Part shown: piece by piece, positions 39,209 to 64,000 of the stretch
Layout: every line of letters starts with the position of its first letter
How positions within the stretch are numbered: the stretch's first letter is position 1
DNA from: Terriglobia bacterium
GTDB lineage: Bacteria > Acidobacteriota > Terriglobia > Bryobacterales > Bryobacteraceae
DNA length: 64,000 bases
Direction of reading: 5' to 3'
Assembly: GCA_020073305.1 (NCBI GenBank)
Contig: JAIQFK010000011.1
Location: 91,547 to 155,546, forward strand
Program-made: the position numbers and the translations under genes
The notes under the pieces: model-generated
The model's database searches: none
The model's input: only the letters and a program-made list of their open reading frames with translations
What the model was told of the DNA's origin: nothing

Positions 39209-39215
39209 GACCGGG

Positions 39216-39413: not shown

Positions 39414-39480
39414 CTCCGAAGCGTAGGCCCATCCTCGCCGTCCAGTGGCCCCTGTATAATCGGGAACAGGCCGCTACACT

Positions 39481-42947: not shown

Positions 42948-43081
42948 CCGGCTGTACCCTCCCGCTGCTGCAACCAGTTCGTAACACTTGAAACCTCTCC
43001 CCCGCCCGGAGCATCAAAAAAGGCGCTCGGCCGCCGCACTTTCGGCCTGCGAACTGCGTATCCTGTTAGGAACTGCGAAGG

Positions 43082-46670: not shown

Positions 46671-46718
46671 TCTGCCAGCTTACAACGGCGGTCGCTTACG
46701 GATGGAGCGGATTCCTGG

Positions 46719-52255: not shown

Positions 52256-52256
52256 T

Positions 52257-53537
52257 TCAGCCTCTTTTTGCCTCTACGTGTTCTGCAGGTGGGTCCGGGA
52301 GATCCACCGGCGAGAGAATCTCGTCGCCGCGATCGAGACCTGAGGTGATTTCGATCCAGGTGTCGCTAAACGCGCCCACCTGAACGGCTCGCTCCTCCTC
52401 GCCGCCAGATCCGGAGATTCGCGTAACGTACGGTTTGCCTTGGCGATAGTGCACCGCGATCCTCGGCACCAGCAATGCCGGCTCCTTCGAGATCACTTCC
52501 AGGTCCACTGCCGCCGAGAGGTCGGGCAGCAAATGGGGATCTTGTTCGTCCATGCGGAACCGGGCCGGAAAAGTCCGGACAACGCTATCCAGAAGTGCAG
52601 TTGCAACCGGGCTCGCCGAATCCAAATGGGCTTTGAAAGTCAGCGCTGGGTACGCGTCCAGGCGGACGGTAGCCTGTGAACCCTGGTCTAGCACTGCGCC
52701 GTCCGGCTCGCCGACCGATACCTCCACTTCCATCGCGGAGGGGTCGAAAATGCGCAGAAGGGGCTGGCCGGGCCAGAGTTGATCGCCTTCCTGGGCTGGG
52801 CCGAAGGTATCGTTGTGCCAGGAGTTTTCGCGCGACACCATCCCGGGTAGCGGGGCCTTCACCAGGAGCTTCTCGGAATTGCTCTGGGCGCGCTCCCACG
52901 CCAGTTTCTGCCGGTCGCGCTGCAACTCGAGAATCTTGAGGTCGGCGGCTTCCGAGACGTCGTGAGAATGTCCGGAGCGCTTGAGGCTGGCGACGTGCGC
53001 CTGGGCATCCTCGAGCTTAGCCTGGTTTTTCAGCCGATCGATTTCACTCAGGATGGGCCCTTTGCGCAACTCCAACTCGGCTTTGGCCAGATCGGCCGTG
53101 GCCTGCTGCAGGTCGGCCGCGCGCTTTTCGGCATCGGCGCGGTGCTGTTCCTTGCGCTGATCCACCTGGTGGCGAAGGTCTTCAAACTTGGCCTGCGCTT
53201 CCCGCGCATTGTCCAGTTGCTTGGTCCGGTCAAATTCGGCCAGGACATCCCCCTCTTTCACCGACCCACCGGTGGGTACGAGTTTGGTCAACGTCATGTC
53301 GCCGCCCTGGCCGTGAATCTGCGGAACCCGAACGGTGAGCGCGTTGACGGCTTGCACGGTACCGTTCGATCGCACCAGCCGGTGCAAACGGTCGAACCGG
53401 ACTTTTATCTTTTTCAATGGGGTGTCCGACCGGGGAGGAATGGGGGCCGTCTTAGCCTCACACCCCATGAGAATGAGAGCTGCCGAAGCCACCGCAGCCC
53501 AAGCACAGCGTGTAACGTGCCGGTTCCGCCGCATCAC
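52257..53537 (-). CDS. HlyD-family periplasmic adaptor 1 (lipoprotein)
   Basis: Lipobox ALILMGC, VKEGDVLAEFD, a coiled coil, and VKAPLPGMV. This is the first gene of the efflux operon. Confidence 0.85.
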   Translation of the reverse strand: MMRRNRHVTRCAWAAVASAALILMGCEAKTAPIPPRSDTPLKKIKVRFDRLHRLVRSNGTVQAVNALTVRVPQIHGQGGDMTLTKLVPTGGSVKEGDVLAEFDRTKQLDNAREAQAKFEDLRHQVDQRKEQHRADAEKRAADLQQATADLAKAELELRKGPILSEIDRLKNQAKLEDAQAHVASLKRSGHSHDVSEAADLKILELQRDRQKLAWERAQSNSEKLLVKAPLPGMVSRENSWHNDTFGPAQEGDQLWPGQPLLRIFDPSAMEVEVSVGEPDGAVLDQGSQATVRLDAYPALTFKAHLDSASPVATALLDSVVRTFPARFRMDEQDPHLLPDLSAAVDLEVISKEPALLVPRIAVHYRQGKPYVTRISGSGGEEERAVQVGAFSDTWIEITSGLDRGDEILSPVDLPDPPAEHVEAKRG

Positions 53538-53692
53538 ATCCTTTGAAACAAGAGGGGTCTTAATATTAGACGCCAGACTCGTCTTGTTTGTTGGGTAGAC
53601 GAGGAGTTTCTCTTAAATAGTACAAGGTTTCGACTGAGGCGGGACACCAACCCTTCGTGGTGCTAGAGCCTTAAGACGCGATGGGGATTTCA

Positions 53693-53869: not shown

Positions 53870-54236
53870 TCAGTTAGCGGTCTTAACCCGCTTGCGTTGC
53901 CGCAACCGAAGCCGAAGATACATCTCGATCTGGTCAGCGGTGTTCTGCGCCAGCCTTACTCCACCCAAAGTGAGCCTCAGATGCTTCCATGCAGTCACGT
54001 TTGCCACCTGCGTTTTTTCGGCGCGCATCAGCGGCTTGGAATAGTCCTCAAAAAAAATCCGTCCATGCATTGAATGTCAATTGTTCACCCTTACGCAACA
54101 GATCAAGGATGTTTTCGTCTCTGGCCTGGAGTCGCTCACGGAGTCTTTTTTGTGCTTCCTGCCAGTCCTCCGTCGATCTCGGCAAACAGGCTCCGTGGGC
54201 AAAACCCGCCCTATCATCAGCGCTGCGCGATCCGAG
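53870..54236 (-). pseudogene. N-terminal remnant of a tyrosine integrase (frameshifted, catalytic domain missing)
   Basis: My translation gives ...RSTEDWQEAQKRLRERLQARDENILDLLRKGEQLTFNAWTDFF. A 1-nt frame change in the A8 run (near 54050) then leads into EDYSKPLMRAEKTQVANVTAWKHLRLTLGGVRLAQNTADQIEMYLRLRLRQRKRVKTAN-stop. This matches the arm and core-binding (SAM-like) part of phage-type integrases. No R..HxxR..Y catalytic domain follows. Confidence 0.5.
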
Positions 54237-54275
54237 TCACCTATTCGAAGAACACCGCACGCGGACGGGGGCGTG

Positions 54276-54893
54276 CTACTTGCCGGATCCGCCGAGGCGC
54301 AGCAAGCCCTCCGCGGCACGCTTACCGCTCTCGGAATTGGGGTCGCTTGCCACGGTGCGTCTCCAGTATTCGCGGGCGGCATCGATTTTGCTTGAATTGG
54401 CATAGATAGCGCCCACGTTATAGAGTGCGTCCACATTCTTTGGATCGCTCGTCAGAATCCGATTGGTTTGTTCCAGCGCCCCGGCGACGTCGCCTGTGTC
54501 GTAAAGGTTTCGGCCCAGCTCCAGACGAGCTTCCGCATTTCCCGGCTCAACCTGGAGGATCTTGCGCAGCAGAGGGATGGCCTCCGCCGGCTTGCCGTTC
54601 TCGCGGGCCAGCTGCGCCAGGCGAAACAAAATGGGTACGTGATTGGGCTTCTTCTGCAGCTCGGCCTGGAGGGCCATAGCCTCATGCCGATTGTCTGCTG
54701 TTTTGTCGGCGACGGGCGGCCGCCCAGCATCGGCACTAGAGGCTTTCCCGGCGTCACTCGACGGAGCGTGTTTCACGAGCAGAAACCACGTCAGTCCGAG
54801 GAAAACGGCCACAGCTGCGACGGCGGCTACTAGAAGGCGTTGAACTCTGGGGTTGAGCGACACGATTTCACTTCTCCTGTCAGGCTTCGGCAA
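54276..54893 (-). CDS. membrane-anchored TPR protein, NrfG/CcmI (CcmH C-terminal)-like
   Basis: One TM helix (LLVAAVAAVAVFLGLTWFLLV), then about 4 TPRs (PILFRLAQLARENGKPAEAIPLLRKILQVEPGNAEA, ALEQTNRILTSDPKNVDA, AREYWRRTVASDPN). It is the last gene of the cytochrome operon and overlaps the upstream gene by 14 nt. Confidence 0.75.
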   Translation of the reverse strand: MPKPDRRSEIVSLNPRVQRLLVAAVAAVAVFLGLTWFLLVKHAPSSDAGKASSADAGRPPVADKTADNRHEAMALQAELQKKPNHVPILFRLAQLARENGKPAEAIPLLRKILQVEPGNAEARLELGRNLYDTGDVAGALEQTNRILTSDPKNVDALYNVGAIYANSSKIDAAREYWRRTVASDPNSESGKRAAEGLLRLGGSGK

Positions 54894-56283
54894 GCTGCGC
54901 CACAGCGAGCTTGGCCTGTCTGGCCTCCAGGCTTGCCTCCAATGTCATGTCGCGCATTCCGAACTCGACGCCGATCTTCTTCAGAAAGTCGTTGGGAGGC
55001 GTGCCACCGGCGAAGATCCAGACGAAGTCGTTGGGTATCTCCTGCAACTGGCCATTAACATCGAGGATCACGGATTCCTGCCTGAATTCCACGGGATTGG
55101 AGTTGAACACGACCTTGACCTTCCCCGTCCGCATGCATTCTTCGATACGCATTGCGTTTCGCTCTTTGATGCGGCTGAAGGATTCCTTGCGATACGAGAG
55201 TGTGACGTGGTTGCCACTTTGATGCCCCAGGCCCATGGCTGCCTCGATGGCGCTGTCGCCACCACCAACCACGAGAATCCTCTTGTTGATGTAATGGTCG
55301 GCCTCAATCAGGCGGTACATGACCTTGGGCAGCTCCTCGCCTTTGACCCCAAGCTTCCGCGGCGTGCCGGCGCGGCCGAGAGCCAGGACCACGGCGCGCG
55401 CCCGGTATTCGTGTTTGCTGGTCACGATGGTGAAGGTGCCATCCTGTCCCCTGCTGATGCGCTCCATTTTCTCGCCCGTACGGACATTGAAATCCACGCG
55501 TTGGAGAACCTGGCGCCAGAAAGCAACGAGCTCTTCCTTGGAGAGCTGCATCTTCGTAAACTTTCCATACATGGGAAATTGCACGGGACTTGTCATTACC
55601 AGTTTCTGGCGCGGATACTTCGCCACCGTACCGCCAATCTCATCCTGCTCAACCGTAATGTAATGGAGCTTGCTCTCGATGGCGCGCAAGGAGGCACTGA
55701 TCCCCGCGGGACCGGCTCCCACGATCAACACATCGTAAACATCCCCGGCTGACCCGGCGCCCCCCATGGCGCTGACCCGGTTGGTGACGGTATCGATGCA
55801 ATCGCGGCCCTGGTTCACTGCATTTTTGATCAAAGCCAGCCCGCCGAGTTCTCCGACAATAAAAAGATTCTGGATGCTTGTCTCGTATTCGGGCGTCAAG
55901 TAGGGCATGTCTGTGCCCATGCTCGGGCTGGCTGTGACCATGGTGATTGCGCCCACCGGGCAGGCCTCGGCGCATAGGCTGTGGCCGATACATTTGTGTC
56001 CGTTGACGATGACCGCCTTGCCTCCCAGCATGGCAAGGACATCACCCTCGGGACACACCGTGGTGCAGGTTTGGCAGCCGATGCAGTACGTGGTGTCGAT
56101 ATGCGGATGCTGGGCCTTGGGCCCCTCGGAATATAGCTTTCCCTTTTCCGCAGCCTCGCGCGCCCGCGCCTCCCTTCTCTTCAGGCTCCTTAGATACAGG
56201 ATCAAGGGGACCGCAAGGACGAACGCCGAGACACAAAAGGTGAGAATGGTGTCGGTCATTTCAAAAGTAGCCCAGAAGGACAA
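54880..56283 (-). CDS. membrane-anchored 2x[4Fe-4S] ferredoxin domain fused to an FAD/NAD(P)-dependent (thioredoxin-reductase-like) oxidoreductase
   Basis: An N-terminal TM helix is followed by a positively charged stretch, so the catalytic part is predicted to be cytoplasmic. Two Cys clusters are present (CIGCQTCTTVCP and CIGHSLCAEACP), plus dinucleotide motifs YDVLIVGAGPAG and ILVVGGGDSAIE. Confidence 0.85.
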   Translation of the reverse strand: MSFWATFEMTDTILTFCVSAFVLAVPLILYLRSLKRREARAREAAEKGKLYSEGPKAQHPHIDTTYCIGCQTCTTVCPEGDVLAMLGGKAVIVNGHKCIGHSLCAEACPVGAITMVTASPSMGTDMPYLTPEYETSIQNLFIVGELGGLALIKNAVNQGRDCIDTVTNRVSAMGGAGSAGDVYDVLIVGAGPAGISASLRAIESKLHYITVEQDEIGGTVAKYPRQKLVMTSPVQFPMYGKFTKMQLSKEELVAFWRQVLQRVDFNVRTGEKMERISRGQDGTFTIVTSKHEYRARAVVLALGRAGTPRKLGVKGEELPKVMYRLIEADHYINKRILVVGGGDSAIEAAMGLGHQSGNHVTLSYRKESFSRIKERNAMRIEECMRTGKVKVVFNSNPVEFRQESVILDVNGQLQEIPNDFVWIFAGGTPPNDFLKKIGVEFGMRDMTLEASLEARQAKLAVAQLAEA

Positions 56284-57214
56284 CCACGCCGATGTGAATC
56301 AACACGAGCGCGGCGAACGAGTAGCTGAACGGGCGATGGACGATGTGCCAGAGATGAAACAACGAGTGAATGCGCGCAAGAAAAAGCATCTTCGCTGAGA
56401 TCCAGGACCAGCCCCGGCACGCGGAGATCACGGCCTCGAGTTCGCGATGGCCGGAAGGCAGCAATCCGCCTACGGTCGCCAGCTTTCCGAGCGGCGAGAG
56501 GGCCTTGCGGCGCAGCCTGCTCACCAGGAACGGGCGCGCGAGATCCATGCGCAGGATGGTCCACAGCGCCATGACTATGGACATCCGCGCGACCTCCTCA
56601 CGTGAAGGGAGCCTCAAAAGGGGCGCAATTTCCTCCGGCGTGAGCATCGCCTGCCGCTGCAAGTCGGCCGCCAATTTGCTCGCCTCGCTTTCCATCTCAT
56701 TGAGCGACAGTTCCGCCGTGCTCAAACTGCGGGGAATCTGTGCGTAAAGGTAGCGGCCAACGAAACCGCTGAGCGCCACGACGATCATGATCCAGTAGGC
56801 CACTCCTGCAATGCCAGCCAGCTTAAAAGAGGAATGGAACGTCACTACCAGCGGTGCGATTACACCTAAGAGCACGTGAAAATCCAGCCAGTGCCTGGTG
56901 GTTCCAATGCGGTTCAACCACGGCCATCGTTTGCGAATCGGATACAGGAACAACCCCACAAAGAGCAAGGCGCCGAGCATCCCCAGCCGCAAGCCGACCG
57001 TGCCGCTGGGTCGCAGCGCAGCGTGTAACGGGGAGTTTGCGCGCCCGGCAAGGTCCTGCCGGTAATAGGGGAAGCCGTAGATTACGAGCCAGAGAATGAC
57101 GCCGGTGGACACCAGCCACGTGAATTGCAGCCGCAGCCGGTGCCAGCGTTCGGGGTCGGATTGAACACCCGCCCGCGCGCGAGTGCTGATGGAGGTTTGG
57201 GAAACGGTTGCCAT
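56261..57214 (-). CDS. six-TM membrane protein with two H-x13-H pairs (candidate di-heme b carrier)
   Basis: 317 aa. H113/H127 (FHVLLGVIAPLVVTFH) and H293/H307 (HRPFSYSFAALVLIH) lie in or at predicted TM helices. The gene is flanked by, and overlaps, genes for redox proteins. Confidence 0.7.
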   Translation of the reverse strand: MATVSQTSISTRARAGVQSDPERWHRLRLQFTWLVSTGVILWLVIYGFPYYRQDLAGRANSPLHAALRPSGTVGLRLGMLGALLFVGLFLYPIRKRWPWLNRIGTTRHWLDFHVLLGVIAPLVVTFHSSFKLAGIAGVAYWIMIVVALSGFVGRYLYAQIPRSLSTAELSLNEMESEASKLAADLQRQAMLTPEEIAPLLRLPSREEVARMSIVMALWTILRMDLARPFLVSRLRRKALSPLGKLATVGGLLPSGHRELEAVISACRGWSWISAKMLFLARIHSLFHLWHIVHRPFSYSFAALVLIHIGVVVLLGYF

Positions 57215-57217
57215 AAG

Positions 57218-58009
57218 TTACTGTTTGGGGCTCTCTGTCTTGGTGTCTGTCGTGACTGAGAACCTACGGTATCGCGCAAACTGGTGGACGTTTCGCCAGC
57301 GTTGATGTTCGGTGCCGGCCTCGATCACGGCCACTTCCGGCAGCCAGGCAGTTTCCTTTTCACTTTGGAACTGCACGGGCACATAGCGCACATCGCTCCA
57401 TAGTTCTCGCAGACCCACGTCAGGCATCGACGTCTTCAATCCGGCATGGATACGGCTGACGTAGCCGGTTTTGGGATCGATCCAGGCGGAACCTTGCCAC
57501 TCCAGTGGATAATCGCGCCCGCGCAACTGTAGCGCGGCCGGAGTGCGCCGTCCCTGAATATGTTCAAAGCGGACCTCCTGGAGCTTTCTGCCGTTGATAT
57601 CCTCCAGGGCGACTGGAGTGAATTCGTAACTGGACTGGAAATAAGGATGGAAGATCAGGACCAGTGTGGAGAAACCCGCGGTGGAGAGCAACGGCCGGTC
57701 ACTCGCCTTTTTTGGCTGCCCTTGGGGCAGGCGCGATTCGTCCACCGTCAGGTCGTCACCTGTCAGTTGCAACATAATGAGGTAATCGAAAGTGGAGGTG
57801 CGCTGCACCAGCACTTTGCCGCTCGCGCCCAGCTTGGTTTGCAGGACCGTCTCCGTGCACGAGACCGCGGAGAACTGGTCCCAGAATTCTTCCACGCGTT
57901 TTCCGGTGCGATCGAGAAGGCCATCCAGCGGTACCGCGGTCGCCGTCGCGCCCACCAGTTTAAAACCGATAGCCAAGACTGAAAAGAATTTGATCATAGT
58001 TCTGCACAT
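57218..58009 (-). CDS. secreted/periplasmic protein, unknown function
   Basis: 263-aa ORF with a signal-like N-terminus (MIKFFSVLAIGFKLVGATATA), no Cys-rich or heme motifs, and a beta-rich sequence. It overlaps the barrel gene's 3' end and ends 3 nt before the next gene. Confidence 0.7.
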   Translation of the reverse strand: MCRTMIKFFSVLAIGFKLVGATATAVPLDGLLDRTGKRVEEFWDQFSAVSCTETVLQTKLGASGKVLVQRTSTFDYLIMLQLTGDDLTVDESRLPQGQPKKASDRPLLSTAGFSTLVLIFHPYFQSSYEFTPVALEDINGRKLQEVRFEHIQGRRTPAALQLRGRDYPLEWQGSAWIDPKTGYVSRIHAGLKTSMPDVGLRELWSDVRYVPVQFQSEKETAWLPEVAVIEAGTEHQRWRNVHQFARYRRFSVTTDTKTESPKQ

Positions 58010-59630
58010 TTCCGCGATACATAGTGGCGCCGCCGCTTACGAAATAGTGGGATGCGAAAAACCAATCCAGATCGTAAGTCAGGAAGTTTCCCCGGCCTTG
58101 GCTGCTAAAGGTTGAGCGCACATTCTGCTGACCGGCTTGCAACGACATGCGCAGCTTTTCGCCAAAATCCCGAAGCAAGGTGGCCGTCGTGTAGTGCCCC
58201 TTGCCGAATGAGCTGTCAAATTTCGAGTATTGCAAATCCGCCCGCATCCCACTCTGCCCGAGACGGCCGAGCATGAGCCCGTACATCTGATTCCAGGAGG
58301 CCCTGAGGTCGGAATCACGCCGGTTGCGTCCCAGATTGGTGTAGACGCTGGCGTGGTACGGCAAATTCACGCGGACGCCTGCGCTCGTGCCCTGGAACAG
58401 GAACTTCTGCAACAGGCCGGTGCCCAACAGGCGCAGATCGAACGTGGGGACGTTGCGGAAGTAGCTGTCGTTGAAGTCAAATGCGATCACGCGGTGCGGC
58501 TGAAATCGCACGGTGAGAAAACTGCGGCTCAGCACCGGACCGCTTTCGGTCGAGCCCAGCCGGCCCCGGACCAACTGGTCGGCTTGCAGATCGTGATAGA
58601 TGGAAAAATACTGTTTGAAGAAAATGCTGTTTTCGAAAAACGCAAATTGCCGCTCGGCGCGCCATTTCAGCCGGGTCAGCGCCACACCCGCCGTGCCCGA
58701 ATAGCGGATCCCGTCAAAGCTGCCGGCCGCAATGTTAGTGAAGGCACCCGCCATCTGGCGATCCTTGTTGTAGTTCCACGACGTGGGGTCGGGCGTGGAG
58801 CCTCCGAAAATTCCAGCCGTCACGCGGCCGAACTTTCGCGCGAAGTACGCACCATCAATCGTGTCCAGACTGCTCGCCCACGGAAGCAGCAGACGTCCTA
58901 TCCCCGCCACGTAGTGCGAATTCGGATTGTCGTAATAAAGGCCGATATGATAGGTGCGGTTAAGCAAGTCGGTGAGCGTCTCCTGCCCTGCGCCACTGCT
59001 CGAGGTCAGCCGGCCGTGCCAGTACCCGGTGAAATTCCAGTACGAACCGCCAATTCGCGTCATGTCGGCGCGGAGCGACATGCCTTCCTGAGTGGAGCTC
59101 GCTTGCGACGGGCCATGGTCTTGTATGGTGGATTGCTCGAGCGCCACCCGTCCCCGGATCCGATTGACTTCAGGTAAAGGCGGCCGCGGCACATACGCAC
59201 GCAGTTCCTCTTCCAGGGGATCGCCTTCCGTGAAGCTGACTACCTGAGCGTACTTGCGCGCGCTTTTGGAAGAGTAAACCATGCGGGCCGTTTCCGTATC
59301 CTGCGCGGAAAGATACGCGAGATCGCCGACCTCCAATTCCATTTCGTGGGACTTGATTTCACACGCCGCCGAGCTTTCCGCAAGCGAGACCACCACCACT
59401 TCGGCAACCGGCTTGGCGTCCATCTCGGCGTCACCCGGCTTCCGGCGCTTCACCGTGAGATGGAAGCCCTCGGCCAGACCGGCGCCACGTCCACCATCCA
59501 GGTACACAGCTCCGCTGGCTACATATCGAACGTGAAAAGTCGTACGCGGTTCCTGACCTTGAGCGTGCCCGGCCACGGCAAGGGCCAGCACGGGCCACCA
59601 GGTCGATAGATAATGGCGTCCGCGTATCAA
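57960..59630 (-). CDS. outer-membrane beta-barrel protein (porin-like) with an N-terminal soluble domain
   Basis: Signal peptide (WWPVLALAVAGHAQG), about 430 aa of alternating amphipathic beta pattern rich in Y/G/N/R, and a canonical OMP C-terminus ...ILFSLGYRF ending in Phe. Its TTG start overlaps the cytochrome stop (TTGA). Confidence 0.8.
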   Translation of the reverse strand: MIRGRHYLSTWWPVLALAVAGHAQGQEPRTTFHVRYVASGAVYLDGGRGAGLAEGFHLTVKRRKPGDAEMDAKPVAEVVVVSLAESSAACEIKSHEMELEVGDLAYLSAQDTETARMVYSSKSARKYAQVVSFTEGDPLEEELRAYVPRPPLPEVNRIRGRVALEQSTIQDHGPSQASSTQEGMSLRADMTRIGGSYWNFTGYWHGRLTSSSGAGQETLTDLLNRTYHIGLYYDNPNSHYVAGIGRLLLPWASSLDTIDGAYFARKFGRVTAGIFGGSTPDPTSWNYNKDRQMAGAFTNIAAGSFDGIRYSGTAGVALTRLKWRAERQFAFFENSIFFKQYFSIYHDLQADQLVRGRLGSTESGPVLSRSFLTVRFQPHRVIAFDFNDSYFRNVPTFDLRLLGTGLLQKFLFQGTSAGVRVNLPYHASVYTNLGRNRRDSDLRASWNQMYGLMLGRLGQSGMRADLQYSKFDSSFGKGHYTTATLLRDFGEKLRMSLQAGQQNVRSTFSSQGRGNFLTYDLDWFFASHYFVSGGATMYRGNVQNYDQILFSLGYRF

Positions 59631-62600
59631 TCGGCCCTCCCCCGGGGGTGGCAGGAGTAACAGTTCAGGCTGTTGTAGACATATCCTTTCACGTCCTTGT
59701 GGTGACCGTCGGTCGTACTCTTATCGTGCGTGTGGCAATTAATGCAGCTGAACACGGAATAATCGGAAGCATTCGTATGGCAGTCGCCACAAGTAGTCCA
59801 CACGCCTTGGTTGTGCGCGCCTGAATAGATGGGGAATTGGGTGTGATTGAACGTTGCGCCCGACCACGAAGTCGTCGTGTGGCAAGTGTCGCAGGTGGTG
59901 GGGAACCCGGCCGCCACGTGATTCGGATTCGTGGTTGTCTGGTACTCCTTCTGGTGGCAACCGTAACAGGCCGTGGAGGACAGGTTGTAGTTGCCGCCCA
60001 CGTGGCACGACGCGCAGGGCGTAGTGGAGTGCACGCCCGTTAACGCAAAACCCGTCTTGCTGTGATCGAACGTAGCGCCCGCCCACGAGGTTGTGCTGTG
60101 ACACGTATCGCAGGTGGTAGGAAACCCAGCCGCCGCGTGGGCGGGGTTAGTGGTGCCGTTGTAATCGGTTTGGTGGCAGTTGATGCAGGCGCCGCTGTTC
60201 AGGCTGTAATTGTTGTTGGTGTGGCACTGCGCGCACTGCAGGTTCACGTGCGCGCCCGTCAGGGCGAAACCGGTGGTTGCATGATTAAACGTTGCACCCA
60301 GCCAATTGGTGGTGGTGTGGCACAGGGTGCAATCCTGCGGGAACCCCGCCGATTGGTGAGGGGGATTTGTGGTGCCGTTGTAATCGGTCAGGTGACAGTT
60401 GATGCAGGCGCCGCTTGTCAGGCTGTAATTGTTGTTGACGTGGCATTGCGCGCACTGCAGGTTCACGTGCGCGCCGGTCAGAGCGAAGCCCGTGGTCGCG
60501 TGATTAAACGTTGCGCCTAGCCAATTGGTGGTGGTGTGGCACAGGGTGCAATCCTGCGGGAACCCCGCTGATTTGTGAGGCGGATTGTTGGTGCCGTTGT
60601 AATCAGTCAAATGGCAGTTGATACACGCGCCGCTGGTGAGGCTGAAATTATTGTTGGTGTGGCACTGTGCGCACTGCAGGTTGACATGCGCCCCGGTGAG
60701 GGCGAAGCCCGTGGTTGTGTGATTGAAGGTGGCGCTGGTCCAGTTGGTGGTGGTGTGGCAGAGGGTGCAATCCTGCGGGAACCCAGCCGATTTGTGAGGC
60801 GGATTATTCGTGCCATTGTAGTCGGTCAGGTGACAGTTGATGCACGCGCCGCTGGTGAGGCTGTAATTGTTATTGACGTGGCACTGCGCGCACTGCAGGT
60901 TGACATGCGCGCCGGTCAGCGCGAAGCCCGTGGTGGCATGGTTGAAAGTAGCGCCCAGCCAATTGGTGGTGGTGTGGCAGGAGTCACACGTGGTCGGAAA
61001 CCCGCCGGCTTTGTGCGGCGGATTGGTGGCGCCGTTGTAATCGGTCAGGTGGCAGTTGATGCAGGCGCCACTGGTCAGGCTGTAATTGTTGTTGGTGTGG
61101 CATTGTGCGCACTGCAGGTTCACGTGCGCGCCGGTCAGCGCGAAGCCCGTGGTCGTATGGTTGAAGGTGGCACCGGTCCAGTTGGTGGTCGTGTGGCACA
61201 GGGTGCAGTCCTGGGGGAAGCCTGCTGACTTGTGAGGCGGATTATTCGTGCCATTGTAGTCGGTCAGGTGACAGTTGATGCACGCGCCGCTGGTGAGGCT
61301 GTAATTGTTATTGACGTGGCACTGCGCGCACTGCAGGTTGACGTGCGCGCCGGTCAGCGCGAAGCCCGTGGTCGCATGGTTGAACGTGGCGCCCAGCCAA
61401 TTGGTGGTGGTGTGGCACAGGGTGCAATCCTGCGGGAACCCAGCCGATTTGTGTGGCGGATTATTGGTGCCGTTGTAATCGGTCAGGTGACAGTTGATGC
61501 AGGCCGCGCTGGTCAGGTTGAAATTGTTGTTGGTGTGGCACTGCGCGCACTGCAGGTTGACATGCGCGCCGGTTAGAGCGAACCCCGTGGTTGTGTGATT
61601 GAACGTTGCACCCAGCCAGTTGGTGGTGGTATGGCACACCGAGCAGTCGGTTGGGAATCCGGCCGAGACGTGATTCGGGTTGGTCGTACCCTGGAAATCC
61701 TTCAGATGGCAGCTCGCGCAGGCCGTTGACAAGCTGCTGAAGTTCCCTCCGACGTGGCACTGATTGCAAGCCGTTGTCTGATGAGCGCCGGTCAACGGGA
61801 ACGCTGTTTTCGAATGATCGAACTGCGCGCCGGCCCACGAGGCTGTGGTGTGGCAGGCTGAGCAGAGTGTCGGAAACCCGGCCGCCACGTGGCTGGGATT
61901 CGTGGTTTTGTTGAAATCCGTCAGGTGGCAGCCGGCGCAATCGGTTGGAGTTCCGGCGAACTTGCCTCCAACGTGGCACTGGCTGCACGCCAGGCTCACA
62001 TGCGCGCCCGTCAGGGGAAACTTGGTGGCCGTGCTGTGATTGAAGACAGCGTTTGCCCACGAGGCGGTGTTGTGGCAGACCTCGCAGGTGGTCGGGAAGG
62101 CGGCTGCGGCGTGAGGCGGATTGTTAGTGCTGGCGAAATCCTTCTGATGGCAGCCAATGCAGGTTGCCGCGGTCAACTTGTAATTGTTGTTGACGTGGCA
62201 CTGCGTGCACGCGATGGTCGCATGGAAACCCGTCAAGGCGAATCCAGTGGTCGTGTGGTTGAAGGTGACGGCGCTCCATTGCGCCGTGGTGTGGCACCAC
62301 TGGCATGTGGTCGGCTGTCCCATCGCCACGTGGTTGGGTTGCGTCGTGTTCTTGTAATCCTGCATATGGCACCCCACGCAATCCGTCGGCAAGCTTCCGC
62401 CGGATGATTTGCTGGTGTGGCACTGGCTGCAGGTCAAAGTGGTGTGCGCCCCGTTGAGTGGAAAGATCGTCTTCGAATGATCGAATTGCGCGCCTGCCCA
62501 TGAACTTGTCGTGTGGCAGTCTGCGCAAGTGGTCGGGAAGCCCGTCGTCACGTGGCTGGGACTCGTGGTCTTTTTGAAATCCGTCAGGTGGCAACTCACG

Positions 62601-63811
62601 CAATCGGTGGAGATGGCCGTAAACTGGCCGCCCGCATGACACTGCGCGCAGGCGGCCGTTGCATGCGCTCCTGTCAGCGGGAACTTCGTGATGCTGTGAT
62701 CGAACTTCGCGCCCTGCCAGTTTGCCGTGGTATGGCACGTATCACACTGCGTGGGTAGATTCAGGCTGCGGTGATTGGGATTGGTGGTCTTGGCAAAGTC
62801 CGGCAGGTGACAGCCGGCGCAATCCGTGGGAGTTCCGGCGAATCGTCCGTTGACGTGACACGCTGAGCACAGCACACTGATGTGCGCCCCGGTAAGGCGG
62901 AACTTGGTCGTGTTGTGGTCGAAGGTCGCGCCCTGCCAGGTGGAGGTGTTGTGACAGCCGCTGCAATCGTGTGGGAAGCCTGCGGTCACGTGATTCGGGT
63001 TTTTCGTGGCGGCAAAAGTTTGCGCGTGACAGCCGTAGCACTCCGTAGGCGTACCCTGGAACCGGTTTCCTGCATGACAAGACGTGCACGCCAATTGAGC
63101 GTGCGCGCCCGTGAGGCTGAACCGCGTGAACTGTGTGTGATCGAACTTCGCTCCCTGCCATTGGTCCATGGTGTGGCAGGTCAGGCAATTGACCGGCAGG
63201 TTTGCCGCGACGTGATCGAGTGGGCGCGCCTGTTGGAAGTTACGCTGGTGGCAACTGATGCAATCGGTGCTCAGTCCGACGTAGACCCCTGTTGCGGCTC
63301 CAGGGTGGCACGAATCGCACTCTACCGTGGCATGCGCGCCTAAGAGTGGGAAGCGATTCAGGTGGCTACGAATCGCATTCACATTCGCGCGCCAGCCATT
63401 GACCGTGTGGCAATCCTGGCAGCGGGCGCCGAGCTGACGCCGATGGATGTCAGCGTGGCAATCAGCGCATTGATGACCAACGTTAGTAAAAACTTTTCTC
63501 AGATGGCAGGAATTACACGCGACATTTTGATGCAAGCCACGCAATGGGTACTTAGTTTCCCGATTGTGGTCAAATTCGACAGTCTTCCGGATGGGCGCCC
63601 AACTCGTCGTGGTGTGGCAGTTCTCGCAAGCGATAGCCAGCGGCCCATGCGGGTTCTGCATGCGCGCCGCTTTGCTGGTCTGGGCAACCAGCACTCCGGA
63701 GCTTGCCAGCAGCGTTGCAAGCACTGCAAACAGGCGCCACGGCCCGCTCACCGGCCGTCTCCAGCCTCCGCCGATTTCTCTTGCTCTTCGCGCCCTCCTG
63801 TCTCGTAGCAA
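59627..63811 (-). CDS. giant multiheme cytochrome c (55 CXXCH motifs; 18 tandem c7-like triheme modules)
   Basis: 1394 aa with a Sec-type signal (WRLFAVLATLLASSGVLVAQ). I counted 55 CXXCH motifs, and the first Cys of each module recurs every 73-74 aa over most of the protein (the first two intervals are 69 and 78) (C62, 131, 209 ... 1234, 1307). The start is TTG 63811 or GTG 63751. Confidence 0.93.
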   Translation of the reverse strand: MLRDRRARRAREIGGGWRRPVSGPWRLFAVLATLLASSGVLVAQTSKAARMQNPHGPLAIACENCHTTTSWAPIRKTVEFDHNRETKYPLRGLHQNVACNSCHLRKVFTNVGHQCADCHADIHRRQLGARCQDCHTVNGWRANVNAIRSHLNRFPLLGAHATVECDSCHPGAATGVYVGLSTDCISCHQRNFQQARPLDHVAANLPVNCLTCHTMDQWQGAKFDHTQFTRFSLTGAHAQLACTSCHAGNRFQGTPTECYGCHAQTFAATKNPNHVTAGFPHDCSGCHNTSTWQGATFDHNTTKFRLTGAHISVLCSACHVNGRFAGTPTDCAGCHLPDFAKTTNPNHRSLNLPTQCDTCHTTANWQGAKFDHSITKFPLTGAHATAACAQCHAGGQFTAISTDCVSCHLTDFKKTTSPSHVTTGFPTTCADCHTTSSWAGAQFDHSKTIFPLNGAHTTLTCSQCHTSKSSGGSLPTDCVGCHMQDYKNTTQPNHVAMGQPTTCQWCHTTAQWSAVTFNHTTTGFALTGFHATIACTQCHVNNNYKLTAATCIGCHQKDFASTNNPPHAAAAFPTTCEVCHNTASWANAVFNHSTATKFPLTGAHVSLACSQCHVGGKFAGTPTDCAGCHLTDFNKTTNPSHVAAGFPTLCSACHTTASWAGAQFDHSKTAFPLTGAHQTTACNQCHVGGNFSSLSTACASCHLKDFQGTTNPNHVSAGFPTDCSVCHTTTNWLGATFNHTTTGFALTGAHVNLQCAQCHTNNNFNLTSAACINCHLTDYNGTNNPPHKSAGFPQDCTLCHTTTNWLGATFNHATTGFALTGAHVNLQCAQCHVNNNYSLTSGACINCHLTDYNGTNNPPHKSAGFPQDCTLCHTTTNWTGATFNHTTTGFALTGAHVNLQCAQCHTNNNYSLTSGACINCHLTDYNGATNPPHKAGGFPTTCDSCHTTTNWLGATFNHATTGFALTGAHVNLQCAQCHVNNNYSLTSGACINCHLTDYNGTNNPPHKSAGFPQDCTLCHTTTNWTSATFNHTTTGFALTGAHVNLQCAQCHTNNNFSLTSGACINCHLTDYNGTNNPPHKSAGFPQDCTLCHTTTNWLGATFNHATTGFALTGAHVNLQCAQCHVNNNYSLTSGACINCHLTDYNGTTNPPHQSAGFPQDCTLCHTTTNWLGATFNHATTGFALTGAHVNLQCAQCHTNNNYSLNSGACINCHQTDYNGTTNPAHAAAGFPTTCDTCHSTTSWAGATFDHSKTGFALTGVHSTTPCASCHVGGNYNLSSTACYGCHQKEYQTTTNPNHVAAGFPTTCDTCHTTTSWSGATFNHTQFPIYSGAHNQGVWTTCGDCHTNASDYSVFSCINCHTHDKSTTDGHHKDVKGYVYNSLNCYSCHPRGRAD
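60100..61650. repeat. seven near-identical tandem 219-bp (73-codon) repeats inside the cytochrome gene
   Basis: For example, TGATGCAGGCGCCGCT recurs at 60181 and 60400, exactly 219 bp apart. The protein modules starting at C723, 796, 869, 942, 1015, 1088 and 1161 are more than 90% identical by eye. Confidence 0.9.
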
Positions 63812-64000
63812 GGTCTCTTGTCTCTCAGGGGTCCAAGATGAATCGTTGCCAGCAGAGCGGCCACGTCCGGCGCGCCCTGCAAGCGGTACTCACAACTCGT
63901 TAAGTTGTTTCGCCAAGCACGCGCGGGACCAGAACCCTGATTGCATGCTTTCGAAGACTCCGTGAAGGCGCCTCACAGATTTGCGTGACAGGCAGCGCAG

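What the first reader, a model, noticed from the sequence alone, without database searches (positions are those of the whole stretch)
54276..63811. Operon coupling a 55-heme cytochrome, an outer-membrane barrel and a flavin/FeS/His-rich membrane module: candidate undescribed trans-envelope electron conduit
Six minus-strand genes are packed with almost no spacing, which implies one translationally coupled unit. In order, they are:
- cytochrome (63811-59627)
- OM beta-barrel (59630-57960), which overlaps the cytochrome stop as TTGA
- secreted protein (58009-57218), which overlaps the barrel gene by 50 nt
- 6-TM His-pair protein (57214-56261), after a 3-nt gap
- membrane-anchored 2x[4Fe-4S]-FAD/NAD(P) protein (56283-54880), overlapping by 23 nt
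- membrane TPR protein (54893-54276), overlapping by 14 nt

The parts list resembles porin-cytochrome conduits (Shewanella MtrCAB, Geobacter Pcc), but the composition differs. There is a single enormous modular cytochrome instead of separate periplasmic and extracellular deca- or dodecahemes. There is no NapC/NirT, ImcH or CbcL-type quinol dehydrogenase. The only inner-membrane components are a His-pair membrane protein and a cytoplasm-facing FeS flavoprotein. That combination suggests electron entry from NAD(P)H or ferredoxin-level donors through b-hemes, as in a split NOX/ferric-reductase arrangement. This last point is inference.
Basis: partly seen in the sequence, partly recalled or inferred. 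Interest (0 to 1): 0.9.

Follow-up and report, generated by a model that had tools for sequence, protein, structure and literature searches.

The report
Acidobacterial giant-cytochrome trans-envelope electron conduit
This is one copy of a widespread, so far unannotated gene system of soil Acidobacteriota that appears to wire a cytoplasmic NAD(P)H-type flavoprotein through a membrane b-type cytochrome and two huge multiheme cytochromes to an outer-membrane barrel; it probably lets these abundant bacteria dump electrons outside the cell.

Summary
Six tightly packed minus-strand genes lie at the stated coordinates: a 55-CxxCH cytochrome of c7-type triheme repeats, a 22-strand outer-membrane barrel, a secreted protein, a His-pair membrane protein, a membrane-anchored 2x[Fe-S]/FAD/NAD(P) flavoprotein and a membrane TPR protein.

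- The operon runs past the window end. A conserved 23-heme cytochrome lies just upstream, so it is not "one cytochrome only".
- The His-pair protein has five strong hydrophobic segments, two invariant H-x13-H pairs and sub-threshold matches to DUF4405/Ferric_reduct/cytochrome b561. In another lineage it is fused to the N-terminal part of the 23-heme cytochrome, a CbcL-like layout.
- The parts co-occur in 61/73 (barrel + secreted protein) and 72/76 (flavoprotein) related loci. They also co-occur in two distant loci (25-27% identity) with shuffled gene order.
- The repeat cytochrome varies from 20 to at least 104 hemes, in steps of three.
- Barrel, secreted protein and membrane protein match no Pfam/NCBIfam family. 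NCBI calls four of the proteins "hypothetical". I found no paper describing the cluster.

Most likely path: NAD(P)H -> FAD -> Fe-S -> 2 heme b -> 23-heme -> 55-heme wire -> barrel -> outside. Quinol as donor is not excluded. New variant of porin-cytochrome conduits; interest high.

The parts
63973..64000 (-). 3' end (…CAACHANL, stop at 63973-63975) of a conserved 23-heme c-type cytochrome gene (653 aa); the rest lies beyond the window end
   Evidence: Read directly. Full gene on the source contig at L001 1281-3242, 23 CxxCH. Complete ORFs with exactly 23 CxxCH occur in 46 of 80 related loci. Orthologs abut the membrane-protein gene in all barrel-less loci.
59627..63811 (-). 55-heme c-type cytochrome (1394 aa from the TTG start; 1374 aa from the GTG at 63751). 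It has a Sec signal peptide, about 16 c7-type triheme units of 73 aa and a conserved C-terminal cap of about 70 aa.
   Evidence: 55 CxxCH, 110 Cys, three further conserved His per unit. PF14522 Cytochrome_C7 203.7 bits in 17 stretches; TIGR04257 nanowire_3heme 49.3 bits against a cutoff of 40. Relatives carry 20-97 CxxCH in complete ORFs and at least 104 in a cut one; 31/43 counts are 1 mod 3 (P = 2e-7). The C-terminal cap is conserved.
60147..61638 (.). 219-bp tandem DNA repeat (6.8 copies, 84% matches) inside the cytochrome gene: a recently amplified block of seven triheme units (aa 723-1233)
   Evidence: Tandem Repeats Finder. Units 9-15 are 84-99% identical at protein level; longest exact DNA repeat is 113 nt.
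57960..59630 (-). Outer-membrane beta-barrel protein (556 aa) of a new family: signal peptide, small N-terminal beta domain (aa 31-107), linker, about 22-strand barrel (aa 158-555), C-terminal GYRF
   Evidence: AF2 pLDDT 76.6 with the strand list. Foldseek hits OM barrels (MOMP, FimD/PapC ushers, OccK, AlgE) at E 3e-9 to 1e-6, TM 0.3-0.4; MtrB is not in the top 50. No Pfam/NCBIfam/PDB-sequence match for it or for 37 relatives. More than 2,700 homologs, all named hypothetical. Start overlaps the cytochrome stop as TTGA.
57218..58009 (-). Secreted 259-263-aa protein of unknown fold (probable start 57997), a conserved partner of the barrel
   Evidence: N-terminal hydrophobic signal. 88 homologs, all named hypothetical except one JGI 'outer membrane lipoprotein-sorting protein'. 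No Pfam or PDB match, even with a profile. Found between the barrel and membrane-protein genes, together with the barrel, in 61/73 informative loci.
56261..57214 (-). Integral membrane protein (317 aa), probable di-heme b cytochrome: five strong TM segments, about 120-aa cytoplasmic helical insert, invariant H113/H127 and H293/H307 (plus H290)
   Evidence: Invariant His residues in close and distant alignments. Hydropathy and charge distribution. AF2 pLDDT 82.6. Family of 3,343 clusters at 50% identity. Sub-threshold Pfam hits of distant members to DUF4405 (11/40), Ni_hydr_CYTB (8/40) and Ferric_reduct (7/40), on the His-bearing helices. Natural fusion to a c-type cytochrome domain.
54880..56283 (-). 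Membrane-anchored cytoplasmic Fe-S flavoprotein (probable start 56259, 459 aa): N-terminal TM helix, two ferredoxin-type cluster motifs (CxxCxxCxxxCP and CxxHxxCxxxCP), YpdA/TrxR-type FAD and NAD(P)H domains
   Evidence: Pfam Fer4_10 plus Pyr_redox_3 at E 8e-44. TIGR04018 YpdA 175 bits, below the 339.9 cutoff. Best PDB relatives are YpdA/Bdr 7a7b at 1e-30, then TrxR and TrxR-type FNR. Single TM at aa 5-23 followed by a K/R-rich stretch. His in the second cluster motif in 72/74 homologs and in the distant L090 and L094. GAGPAG and GGGDSA motifs. Downstream of the membrane-protein gene on the same strand in 72/76 loci.
54276..54893 (-). Membrane-anchored TPR protein with the TPR domain probably periplasmic (probable start 54863, 195 aa)
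   Evidence: TPR Pfam families. PF23914 TPR_CcmH_CycH 32.4 bits, below the 42 cutoff. Single TM at aa 12-30. PDB relatives are generic TPRs. Present downstream in 30/70 loci and directly after the membrane-protein gene in the distant L094.
54257..54276 (-). Terminator-like GC-rich hairpin immediately after the TPR stop codon; possible end of the transcription unit
   Evidence: This is a weak consensus match only, and the scan as a whole was not enriched over shuffles.

Best explanation
The window carries most of one copy of a conserved gene system of Acidobacteriota that forms a complete electron path from the cytoplasm to the cell exterior.

Proposed path:
1. A flavoprotein is tethered to the inner face of the cytoplasmic membrane. 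It takes a hydride from NAD(P)H onto FAD and passes single electrons through two Fe-S clusters. The second cluster has a conserved His where a Cys normally sits.
2. The adjacent membrane protein holds two b-hemes between two helices, one heme near each membrane face. It carries the electrons across the membrane.
3. A conserved periplasmic 23-heme cytochrome, encoded just beyond the window end, docks on the membrane protein with its N-terminal part.
4. It hands electrons to a single-polypeptide heme wire of c7-type triheme modules. The wire has 55 hemes here and 20 to more than 100 in relatives.
5. The wire is encoded next to, and probably translationally coupled with, a 22-strand outer-membrane barrel of a new family. 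The wire is proposed to pass through or be exported by this barrel, to reach insoluble or polymeric acceptors such as Fe(III)/Mn(IV) minerals, humics or particulate organic matter.
6. A conserved secreted protein and a membrane-anchored TPR protein are accessory parts, with roles in assembly, docking or cytochrome maturation.

Shown here: domain identities, invariant residues, barrel fold, repeat architecture, conserved co-occurrence in three gene orders, and a natural b/c fusion.

Inferred: that hemes b and the Fe-S clusters are bound, that NAD(P)H is the donor, the outward direction, that the wire sits in the barrel, and the nature of the acceptor.
For: Parts verified:
- 55 CxxCH in c7-type units with three extra His per unit.
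- 22-strand OM barrel.
- Fe-S/FAD/NAD(P) flavoprotein with an N-terminal anchor followed by a K/R-rich stretch, so facing the cytoplasm.
- Membrane protein with two H-x13-H pairs that stay invariant down to 25% identity.
- Sub-threshold matches to three heme-b families. One of them, DUF4405, has been shown experimentally to bind heme b (PMC11334425).

Functional linkage in 80 species-level loci:
- Barrel and secreted protein upstream in 61/73 loci.
- Flavoprotein directly downstream in 72/76 loci.
- 23-heme orthologs in about 50 loci.

Core module: loci without the barrel keep the 23-heme/membrane-protein/flavoprotein trio contiguous, next to a different porin-NHL-cytochrome cluster.

Same parts in other gene orders in distant lineages:
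- L090: b, flavoprotein, 20-heme, at least 51-heme.
- L094: b, TPR, 20-heme, 16-heme, barrel homolog, flavoprotein.

Rosetta-stone fusion: the first ~260 aa of the 23-heme cytochrome are 45% identical (E 3e-70) to the c-type domain fused to the b-type domain in P0387. P0387 is seen on 8 contigs from independent samples. The junction is at TM2, which places that loop in the periplasm.

Other support:
- His at the second Fe-S motif in 72/74 homologs.
- Heme number varies in steps of three (31/43 counts, P = 2e-7), which points to a modular wire of tunable length.

Direction: NAD(P)H at about -320 mV feeding low-potential bis-His hemes is downhill, and it is aided by the membrane potential. This rests on established bioenergetics and is inference here.
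Against: - No cofactor, activity, localisation or transcript was observed; everything is sequence-based.
- The membrane protein itself has no Pfam hit. Its AF2 model has no Foldseek match (best E 0.46). Profile comparison with E. coli MsrQ and YodB is not significant.
- The natural b/c fusion P0387 lies in a locus with no flavoprotein or barrel. Two of 76 loci lack the flavoprotein altogether, and in two more it is on the opposite strand. The b-type protein can therefore work without an adjacent flavoprotein, as a quinol oxidase would.
- Moving electrons outward from a cytoplasmic donor conserves no energy by itself.
- The barrel has 22 strands against 26 in MtrB. Whether a c7-type chain fits inside was not tested.
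- The barrel's best TM-scores are to pilus ushers, which suggests export rather than a permanent sheath.
- The role of the TPR protein is unsupported beyond a sub-threshold CcmH/CycH-TPR hit.
Confidence: 0.5

Rival explanations
1. Quinol-fed conduit. The His-pair membrane protein plus the 23-heme cytochrome act as a CbcL/CbcBA-like menaquinol:cytochrome c oxidoreductase. Electrons enter from the quinone pool, as in Geobacter and Shewanella. The flavoprotein has a side role, for example as a local NAD(P)H:quinone reductase, a redox sensor or a second entry point.
For: - The natural fusion P0387 (c-type domain plus b-type domain) has the CbcL architecture. It occurs in loci without any flavoprotein.
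- 8/40 distant members weakly hit Ni_hydr_CYTB, the family of the CbcL b-domain.
- 2 of 76 informative loci lack the flavoprotein altogether.
- Quinol oxidation at the periplasmic face would be energy-neutral or energy-conserving, unlike direct NAD(P)H export (own knowledge).
Against: - The flavoprotein is directly downstream in 72/76 loci. It stays with the system in distant lineages despite gene shuffling.
- It carries its own membrane anchor and a conserved His-containing terminal cluster motif.
- No known quinol-oxidase model (NapC/NirT, ImcH, CbcL) matches.
- No quinone site can be recognised.
Confidence: 0.25
2. Export and assembly rather than a sheath. The barrel, with its N-terminal domain, and the secreted protein form an usher-like secretion device. 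It releases the long cytochrome to the cell surface or matrix, where the cytochrome acts as a free or surface-bound wire. Electrons cross the outer membrane by another route.
For: - The best TM-scores of the barrel model are to FimD/PapC ushers (TMq 0.39-0.40).
- The barrel has a separate N-terminal beta domain.
- Barrel-less loci pair the core trio with a different porin-NHL-cytochrome cluster. Barrels are therefore interchangeable accessories.
Against: - Foldseek similarity is generic to many OM barrels, with low TM-scores. There is no usher plug or C-terminal domains.
- No other OM conduit is encoded in the cluster.
- The cytochrome-barrel gene overlap mirrors known porin-cytochrome pairs (own knowledge).
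Confidence: 0.12
3. Not extracellular respiration. The heme-rich proteins would serve as a periplasmic electron store (capacitor), or as a reductase for soluble periplasmic or extracellular oxidants (ROS, metals, nitrogen or sulfur species). Alternatively the system runs inward, taking electrons from Fe(II) or reduced humics.
For: - No acceptor is identifiable from sequence.
- Many Acidobacteriota that carry the system are considered aerobes or facultative (PMC8100337).
- The literature states that the substrates of most acidobacterial multiheme cytochromes are unknown.
Against: - A dedicated, conserved OM barrel gene overlapping the cytochrome gene, and a wire of variable length, are hard to explain for a purely periplasmic role.
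- There is no catalytic-type heme motif. All Cys are in plain CxxCH, and enough His are present for bis-His ligation.
- Inward flow to NAD(P)+ is uphill both in redox potential and against the membrane potential (own knowledge).
Confidence: 0.1

Closest known systems
MtrCAB porin-cytochrome complex of Shewanella (and the MtoAB/PioAB relatives)
   Same: An outer-membrane barrel gene adjacent to multiheme cytochrome genes. The logic is a heme chain insulated by a barrel so that electrons can cross the outer membrane.
   Different: - The barrel is not an MtrB/PioB family member. It has no PF11854 hit, 22 rather than 26 strands, and MtrB is not among the top Foldseek hits.
- There is no decaheme MtrA/DmsE member; TIGR03508 scores only 37-53 bits against a cutoff of 192.
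- There is no lipoprotein MtrC/OmcA. Instead the system has a 23-heme cytochrome plus a cytochrome of 20 to more than 100 hemes.
- The inner-membrane entry is not CymA.
Geobacter porin-cytochrome clusters (OmaB-OmbB-OmcB; ExtABCD, ExtEFG, ExtHIJKL)
   Same: Operons that combine a porin-like barrel, periplasmic and outer multiheme cytochromes, and sometimes small non-heme accessory proteins (own knowledge; PMC5877670 listed).
   Different: - There is no detectable sequence relationship between the barrels.
- No lipoprotein cytochromes are present.
- Here the operon also carries its own inner-membrane b-type cytochrome and a cytoplasmic flavoprotein. The Geobacter clusters lack these.
GSU1996-type 'nanowire' cytochromes of Geobacter (chains of c7-type triheme domains; TIGR04257, PF14522)
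   Same: The 55-heme protein is a tandem array of c7-type triheme modules. It passes both models. The concept of a single-polypeptide heme wire is the same (PMC11492766).
   Different: - It has 55 hemes (20 to at least 104 in relatives) against 12 in GSU1996. PMC11492766 also describes a separate, unnamed 27-motif wire-like cytochrome from Geobacter metallireducens.
- Three conserved extra His per unit predict all-bis-His ligation, whereas GSU1996 has His-Met hemes (own knowledge; title of PMC8488605).
- It has a conserved C-terminal cap and sits in a fixed operon with a barrel and a membrane module.
CbcL / CbcBA inner-membrane cytochromes of Geobacter (di-heme b domain plus periplasmic multiheme c)
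   Same: A b-type membrane domain is paired, and in P0387 fused, with a periplasmic multiheme c domain.
   Different: - Matches to the CbcL-type b domain family (PF01292) are sub-threshold only.
- The partner cytochrome has 23 hemes.
- A membrane-anchored Fe-S flavoprotein accompanies it almost always.
- Quinol oxidation is unproven.
Ferric-reductase-domain / DUF4405 / MsrQ / NOX transmembrane di-heme b proteins
   Same: - Two His pairs on two helices, spaced 13-14 residues, carry electrons across the membrane from a cytoplasmic flavin/NAD(P)H site to an outside acceptor.
- A motif-level match to MsrQ (HW..(L/F)H...AP...H) is seen on the His helix.
- DUF4405 has been shown to bind heme b (PMC11334425).
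   Different: - No significant profile or fold match.
- Five TM segments with a 120-aa cytoplasmic insert instead of six TM.
- The dehydrogenase is a separate TrxR/YpdA-fold protein with two Fe-S clusters, not an FNR-fold domain.
- The acceptor is a cytochrome c chain, not O2, Fe3+ chelates or MsrP.
Di-heme (type B) succinate:quinone oxidoreductase / fumarate reductase
   Same: The wiring is FAD, then Fe-S clusters, then two b-hemes stacked across the membrane on a roughly 5-helix anchor. The terminal cluster motif lacks its second Cys, as in the [3Fe-4S] motif of FrdB/SdhB (own knowledge; motif).
   Different: - The subunits are not homologous.
- The donor would be NAD(P)H rather than succinate.
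- The acceptor would be periplasmic cytochrome c rather than quinone.
- This is an analogy only.
Acidobacteriota EET1 (porin-NHL-13-heme) and EET2 (MtrC-DmsE-porin-CytC) clusters of Fiorito et al. 2026 (bioRxiv 10.64898/2026.05.27.727921)
   Same: Same phylum and habitats. Both are conserved syntenic porin plus multiheme-cytochrome clusters proposed for extracellular electron transfer. An EET1-like cluster lies back-to-back with the core trio in barrel-less loci.
   Different: - Those clusters have 4-13-heme cytochromes and MtrB-like porins.
- No membrane b-type protein, Fe-S flavoprotein, 23-heme cytochrome or long repeat cytochrome is described.
- The preprint leaves the electron donors and acceptors unresolved and describes no inner-membrane entry module.

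Membership tests
MtrAB/PioAB-type porin-cytochrome conduit | Outer-membrane barrel of the MtrB/PioB family (Pfam PF11854; 26 strands in MtrB) | tested here: not met
   No Pfam hit for the barrel or for 37 relatives. A profile search against PDB sequences found nothing. The AF2 model has about 22 strands. Foldseek top 50 are porins, ushers and AlgE, not MtrB.
MtrAB/PioAB-type porin-cytochrome conduit | Periplasmic decaheme of the MtrA/DmsE family (TIGR03508) | tested here: not met
   TIGR03508 scores 37.3 bits (55-heme) and 53.3 bits (23-heme) against a cutoff of 192.2.
MtrAB/PioAB-type porin-cytochrome conduit | Barrel gene adjacent to and co-oriented with the multiheme cytochrome gene | tested here: met
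   TTGA overlap in the window. The barrel and secreted-protein genes lie upstream of the membrane-protein gene on the same strand in 61/73 loci, and a multiheme cytochrome ORF precedes the barrel in the loci examined.
MtrAB/PioAB-type porin-cytochrome conduit | Cytochrome physically threaded through the barrel | not testable with these tools
   No multimer prediction or experiment was available.
c7-type triheme-repeat 'nanowire' cytochromes (GSU1996 type) | Tandem c7-type triheme domains (PF14522; TIGR04257) | tested here: met
   PF14522 203.7 bits with 17 stretches (cutoff 24.8). TIGR04257 49.3 bits (cutoff 40). About 16 units of 73 aa.
c7-type triheme-repeat 'nanowire' cytochromes (GSU1996 type) | Heme ligation pattern and extended rod-like structure | not tested
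   Three extra conserved His per unit suggest bis-His ligation. No structure was predicted for the cytochrome.
Di-heme b transmembrane electron carriers (Ferric_reduct / DUF4405 / Ni_hydr_CYTB superfamily) | Two His pairs on two TM helices, about 13 residues apart | tested here: met
   H113/H127 and H293/H307. H113, H127 and H293 are invariant and H307 is at least 90% conserved, down to 25% identity.
Di-heme b transmembrane electron carriers (Ferric_reduct / DUF4405 / Ni_hydr_CYTB superfamily) | Significant sequence-profile match to a member family | tested here: inconclusive
   The window protein has no hit. Distant members: DUF4405 11/40 (best 1.6e-5), Ni_hydr_CYTB 8/40, Ferric_reduct 7/40. 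The individual matches examined are below Pfam's cutoffs and short, and they fall on the His helices. hhalign against MsrQ and YodB gives probability below 1%.
Di-heme b transmembrane electron carriers (Ferric_reduct / DUF4405 / Ni_hydr_CYTB superfamily) | Fold similarity to a solved member | tested here: not met
   Foldseek against PDB: best E 0.46, TM 0.25 or lower. Dcytb appears only at rank 44. Foldseek is weak on helical membrane bundles, so this is not strong negative evidence.
Di-heme b transmembrane electron carriers (Ferric_reduct / DUF4405 / Ni_hydr_CYTB superfamily) | Binds heme b | not testable with these tools
   Requires spectroscopy of the purified protein.
CbcL/CbcBA-type quinol:cytochrome c oxidoreductases | b-type membrane domain joined to, or encoded next to, a periplasmic multiheme c domain | tested here: met
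   Fusion P0387 (9 CxxCH plus the b domain) on 8 contigs. The 23-heme gene abuts the membrane-protein gene in barrel-less loci.
CbcL/CbcBA-type quinol:cytochrome c oxidoreductases | Homology to CbcL/CbcB and a quinol-oxidising site | tested here: inconclusive
   Only sub-threshold PF01292 hits. No NCBIfam model matched. Quinol oxidation cannot be tested here.
YpdA/thioredoxin-reductase-type flavoproteins | Two dinucleotide-binding motifs (FAD and NAD(P)H) and the Pyr_redox_3 fold | tested here: met
   PF13738 150.5 bits (cutoff 30). GAGPAG and GGGDSA motifs. PDB best hits are YpdA/Bdr at 1e-30 and TrxR.
YpdA/thioredoxin-reductase-type flavoproteins | Equivalog score for YpdA (TIGR04018), or the CxxC redox-active disulfide of TrxR | tested here: not met
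   TIGR04018 175.3 bits against 339.9; TIGR01292 85.7 against 343. The flavin domain has only two isolated Cys and no CxxC (sequence). Extra N-terminal TM anchor and di-cluster ferredoxin domain.
CcmI/CycH/NrfG-type apocytochrome TPR chaperones | Match to the CcmH/CycH TPR domain (PF23914) above threshold | tested here: not met
   32.4 bits against a cutoff of 42. The closest PDB relatives are generic or designed TPRs.

The most novel reading that the evidence does not exclude
This would be a quinone-independent, NAD(P)H-driven route for extracellular electron transfer, functionally a 'NOX for minerals and humics'.
- A membrane-tethered Fe-S flavoprotein and a new-family di-heme b protein export cytoplasmic reducing equivalents directly.
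- The electrons enter a single-polypeptide heme wire whose length is genetically tunable (20 to more than 100 hemes, changing by triheme units).
- The wire crosses the outer membrane in a new barrel family.
- The system is present in hundreds of species of one of the most abundant soil phyla. There it would serve as an electron sink for fermentative or anaerobic growth on organic matter.
Probability: 0.35. Interest if true: 0.9.

Novelty: new variant of a known kind. Interest (0 to 1): 0.78.

Why it matters
- **Ecology.** Acidobacteriota are among the most abundant bacteria in soils and peat. How they respire or dispose of electrons without oxygen is largely unknown. Recent work proposes extracellular electron transfer to particulate organic matter but leaves the electron donors and acceptors unresolved and describes no inner-membrane entry module (preprint).
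- **A testable parts list.** This system gives a concrete path from cytoplasm to cell surface. It is present in at least 454 species-level genomes and in thousands of protein clusters.
- **Mechanism.** If the flavoprotein feeds it, it would be a new way to couple NAD(P)H directly to external acceptors, bypassing the quinone pool.
- **Materials.** The repeat cytochromes are single polypeptides of 20 to more than 100 hemes whose length changes in steps of three hemes. They are natural molecular wires of adjustable length and are of interest for bioelectronics.
- **Annotation.** Three protein families (barrel, secreted protein, b-type membrane protein) currently have no annotation at all.

Tried and rejected
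1. **Known-family assignment.** Pfam and NCBIfam on all six proteins gave nothing for the barrel, the secreted protein or the membrane protein. Member-wise scans of relatives gave nothing for the barrel or the secreted protein.
2. **PDB sequence-profile searches.** Profiles of the membrane protein, the secreted protein and the barrel, and the 23-heme cytochrome sequence, gave no hits.
3. **Foldseek on the membrane-protein model.** No meaningful match.
4. **hhalign of the family profile against E. coli MsrQ and YodB.** Not significant. I do not file the protein in the FRD/cytochrome b561 families.
5. **Barrel relationship in barrel-less loci.** I tested whether the 621-aa protein of L034 is related to the window's barrel. 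It is not.
6. **TPR protein as a CcmI/NrfG-type chaperone.** Only a sub-threshold Pfam hit and generic PDB relatives. Kept as a low-confidence idea.
7. **Promoter/terminator scan.** Not enriched over shuffles, so uninformative about co-transcription.
8. **P0480 as strain-level repeat-number variation.** Rejected: it is identical for 794 aa and then diverges, so it is an assembly break.
9. **P0341 (742 aa) as a natural barrel/secreted-protein/membrane-protein fusion.** Judged a read-through or assembly artefact.
10. **The 446-aa cytochrome next to the P0387 fusion.** It is unrelated to the 23-heme cytochrome.
11. **L094 as a cytochrome-free variant.** Rejected: two cytochrome genes had been missed by the gene caller.
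12. **Literature.** Seven searches and six papers read found no description of this cluster.
13. **Not possible.** A second genome-collection scan to look for cultured carriers.

Full report
**1. Observation**

The 1394-aa product of 59627-63811 has 55 CxxCH motifs. All 110 of its cysteines lie in these motifs, at a regular 32/16/25-residue spacing. Composition alone would give 0.7 motifs.

The junctions are as described: TTGA at cytochrome/barrel, and a 3-nt gap before the membrane-protein gene. A gene caller on the source contig chooses later starts for four genes: 63751 for the cytochrome, 57997 for the secreted protein, 56259 for the flavoprotein and 54863 for the TPR protein. This turns two 'overlaps' into gaps of 1 and 16 nt. 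The genes remain very tightly packed.

The consensus promoter/terminator scan was not informative. The one relevant site is a hairpin right after the last stop codon.

**2. Source and extent**

The window comes from a 235-kb metagenomic contig of an Acidobacteriia/Terriglobia MAG. NCBI names the cytochrome, the barrel, the secreted protein and the membrane protein 'hypothetical protein' (MBZ5593634-37). It names the flavoprotein 'NAD(P)-binding domain-containing protein'.

The unit is cut by the window end. The last nine codons (…CAACHANL*) of a 653-aa, 23-CxxCH cytochrome gene lie at 63973-64000, 161 nt upstream of the 55-heme gene. Downstream of the cluster lies an unrelated efflux operon with three HlyD-like adaptors, MacB and an OEP.

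**3. The parts**

*(a) The 55-heme cytochrome.*
- It is a chain of about 16 c7-type triheme units of 73 aa. PF14522 scores 203.7 bits in 17 stretches, and TIGR04257 'nanowire_3heme' scores above its cutoff.
- Each unit has three further conserved His (NPxH, FxH, TGAH), enough for bis-His ligation of every heme.
- Units 9-15 are 84-99% identical. They correspond to a 219-bp DNA tandem repeat at 60147-61638, which indicates recent amplification.
- Other assemblies of the same strain break there. The longest exact repeat is 113 nt, below the assembler's k of 141.

*(b) The 556-aa protein.*
- AF2 (pLDDT 76.6) gives a signal peptide, a small N-terminal beta domain, a linker and 22 strands ending in GYRF.
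- Foldseek matches outer-membrane barrels in general. The best TM-scores are to pilus ushers, and MtrB is not in the top 50.
- There is no Pfam, NCBIfam or PDB-sequence match.

*(c) The 259-263-aa secreted protein.* No recognisable relative, even with a profile.

*(d) The 317-aa membrane protein.*
- It has five strongly hydrophobic segments and a roughly 120-aa K/R-rich insert between the fourth and the last.
- H113/H127 on the third segment and H293/H307 on the last are conserved down to 25% identity.
- The charge distribution, and the junction point of the natural fusion described below, put the N-terminus in the cytoplasm. They place one His of each pair near each membrane face. This is the classic arrangement for two stacked b-hemes.
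- The protein itself has no Pfam hit. Distant family members give short, sub-threshold matches on the His helices to DUF4405 (11/40), Ni_hydr_CYTB (8/40) and Ferric_reduct (7/40). DUF4405 proteins have been shown to bind heme b (PMC11334425).
- Foldseek and hhalign against MsrQ and YodB were not significant. Family membership is therefore open.

*(e) The flavoprotein.*
- It has one N-terminal TM helix followed by a K/R-rich stretch, so the rest faces the cytoplasm.
- It has a di-cluster ferredoxin domain and a YpdA/TrxR-type FAD/NAD(P)H domain.
- Its second cluster motif is CxxHxxCxxxCP. The His is present in 72/74 homologs and in the most distant ones.
- It has no CxxC disulfide.

*(f) The TPR protein.* It has one N-terminal TM helix and generic TPRs.

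**4. Conservation**

The membrane-protein family has more than 2,500 hits in one library and 3,343 clusters at 50% identity in another. The barrel family has more than 2,700 hits. A pattern scan of species-representative genomes found 454 genomes, almost all Acidobacteriota from soil, peat, groundwater and wetland.

In the 80 best loci:
- Barrel plus secreted protein lie upstream on the same strand in 61 of 73 informative loci.
- The flavoprotein lies directly downstream in 72 of 76.
- The TPR protein is present in 30 of 70.
- A complete ORF with exactly 23 CxxCH is present in 46 of 80, with full-length orthologs in about 50.
- The cytochrome between it and the barrel ranges from 20 to 97 CxxCH in complete ORFs, and reaches at least 104 in a cut one. 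31 of 43 counts are 1 mod 3 (P = 2e-7). This fits gain and loss of whole triheme units. All share a conserved C-terminal cap of about 70 aa.

About eleven loci lack the barrel and the secreted protein. There the 23-heme gene abuts the membrane-protein gene. In the one such locus examined (L034), the trio sits back-to-back with an NHL/cytochrome cluster of the 'EET1' type. In L034 the 621-aa candidate porin is unrelated to the window's barrel and has no Pfam hit, so its barrel nature was not established.

The constant core is therefore the 23-heme cytochrome, the b-type membrane protein and the flavoprotein. The long wire, the barrel and the secreted protein form one of at least two outer modules.

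**5. Distant lineages and a fusion**

Two family members at 25-27% identity keep the same parts in different orders.
- L090: membrane protein, flavoprotein, 20-heme cytochrome, giant cytochrome with at least 51 hemes.
- L094: membrane protein, TPR, 20-heme, 16-heme, a barrel homolog (24% identity, E 1.6e-6), flavoprotein. The two cytochrome genes had been missed by the gene caller on a low-coverage long-read contig.

Conserved gene content under shuffled order is strong evidence for one functional system.

In a third lineage, the N-terminal ~260 residues of the 23-heme family are fused to the membrane domain at its second TM segment (45% identity, E 3e-70). This fusion, P0387, is seen on 8 contigs from independent samples. 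It argues that the 23-heme cytochrome docks on the periplasmic face of the membrane protein. That locus has no flavoprotein or barrel. This is the main evidence for the rival reading that the membrane protein can draw on quinol.

**6. Mechanism**

The best-supported reading is an outward electron path: NAD(P)H, FAD, two Fe-S clusters, inner heme b, outer heme b, 23-heme cytochrome, 55-heme wire, barrel, external acceptor.

- Shown: the identities, the conservation and the linkages.
- Inferred: cofactor binding, the donor, the direction, threading of the wire through the barrel, and the acceptor.

The outward direction is favoured on thermodynamic grounds (own knowledge). Such a path conserves no energy by itself, so it would suit disposal of reducing equivalents during fermentative or anaerobic growth.

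Rivals are quinol entry (0.25), an export device rather than a sheath (0.12), and non-EET or inward roles (0.10).

**7. Comparison with known systems**

- It works like a porin-cytochrome conduit but fails the membership tests for MtrB and MtrA families.
- The wire is a member of the c7-repeat cytochromes, on a much larger scale than GSU1996.
- The membrane module resembles CbcL/CbcBA (b plus c), NOX/MsrQ/DUF4405 (NAD(P)H-flavin to two b-hemes) and di-heme complex II (FAD, Fe-S, two b-hemes). It is not a demonstrable member of any of them.
- The only paper found on conserved acidobacterial EET clusters describes different clusters (4-13-heme cytochromes, MtrB-like porins). It describes no inner-membrane entry module and leaves the electron donors and acceptors unresolved.
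- Other surveys note large acidobacterial cytochromes of unknown role.

**8. Verdict**

The feature is real. It is more extensive than the window shows, it is widespread, and it is apparently undescribed. I rate it a new variant of a known kind (trans-envelope porin-cytochrome conduits), with a possibly new type of electron entry. Interest is 0.78. The main uncertainty is whether electrons enter from NAD(P)H through the flavoprotein or from the quinone pool.

Noticed in passing
window 63973-64000 (-); L001 1281-3242: The window ends inside the 3' end of a conserved 23-heme cytochrome gene that belongs to the same system.
   Followed up: yes
window about 46700-53540 (-): Directly downstream lies an efflux operon with three tandem HlyD/MacA-like adaptor paralogs, a MacB-type permease and an OEP/TolC-like protein. 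Three adaptors in a row is unusual. A 66-aa ORF (53870-54070, -) sits between this operon and the cluster.
   Followed up: no
window 60001-62000: GC skew jumps to +0.21 here. The interval coincides with the near-identical repeat block of the cytochrome gene. I attribute the skew to the composition of that repeat rather than to a replication feature, but I did not test this.
   Followed up: partly
window 60147-61638; L002-L005; P0480: Other assemblies of the same strain end or diverge inside the near-identical triheme repeats. The copy number (55 hemes) therefore depends on the assembly and should be confirmed with long reads.
   Followed up: partly
window 55850-55900 (aa about 122-138 of the flavoprotein): The segment 'IQNLFIVGELGG' resembles the C-terminal FAD-binding segment of YpdA (weak second HMMER domain), yet it lies before the first Rossmann motif. 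This may be a circular permutation of the flavoprotein fold.
   Followed up: no
L094 8500-11700: On a 5.6x long-read contig, the public gene calls are small opposite-strand ORFs. The plus strand in fact encodes a 20-heme and a 16-heme cytochrome. Such miscalls can hide cytochromes in surveys.
   Followed up: yes
L034 400-8100 (and L023, L050, L064, L066): In loci without the barrel, the 23-heme/b-type/flavoprotein trio is divergently adjacent to minus-strand 4-heme and 11-heme cytochrome genes. In L034 these come with NHL beta-propeller genes and an unannotated 621-aa protein. The cluster resembles 'EET1' of Fiorito et al. 2026. This suggests that one inner-membrane module can serve different outer modules.
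   Followed up: partly
L018, L026, L030: ORFs with 97 to at least 104 CxxCH occur in loci where no separate 23-heme gene is seen. They may be fusions of the 23-heme and repeat cytochromes, and they are among the most heme-rich proteins I am aware of.
   Followed up: no
window 36650-42950 (+): A hybrid histidine kinase/response regulator, a glycogen phosphorylase-like gene, a HAMP-PAS histidine kinase and a sigma-54 activator lie 11-17 kb from the cluster (gene calls). No link to the cluster was examined.
   Followed up: no
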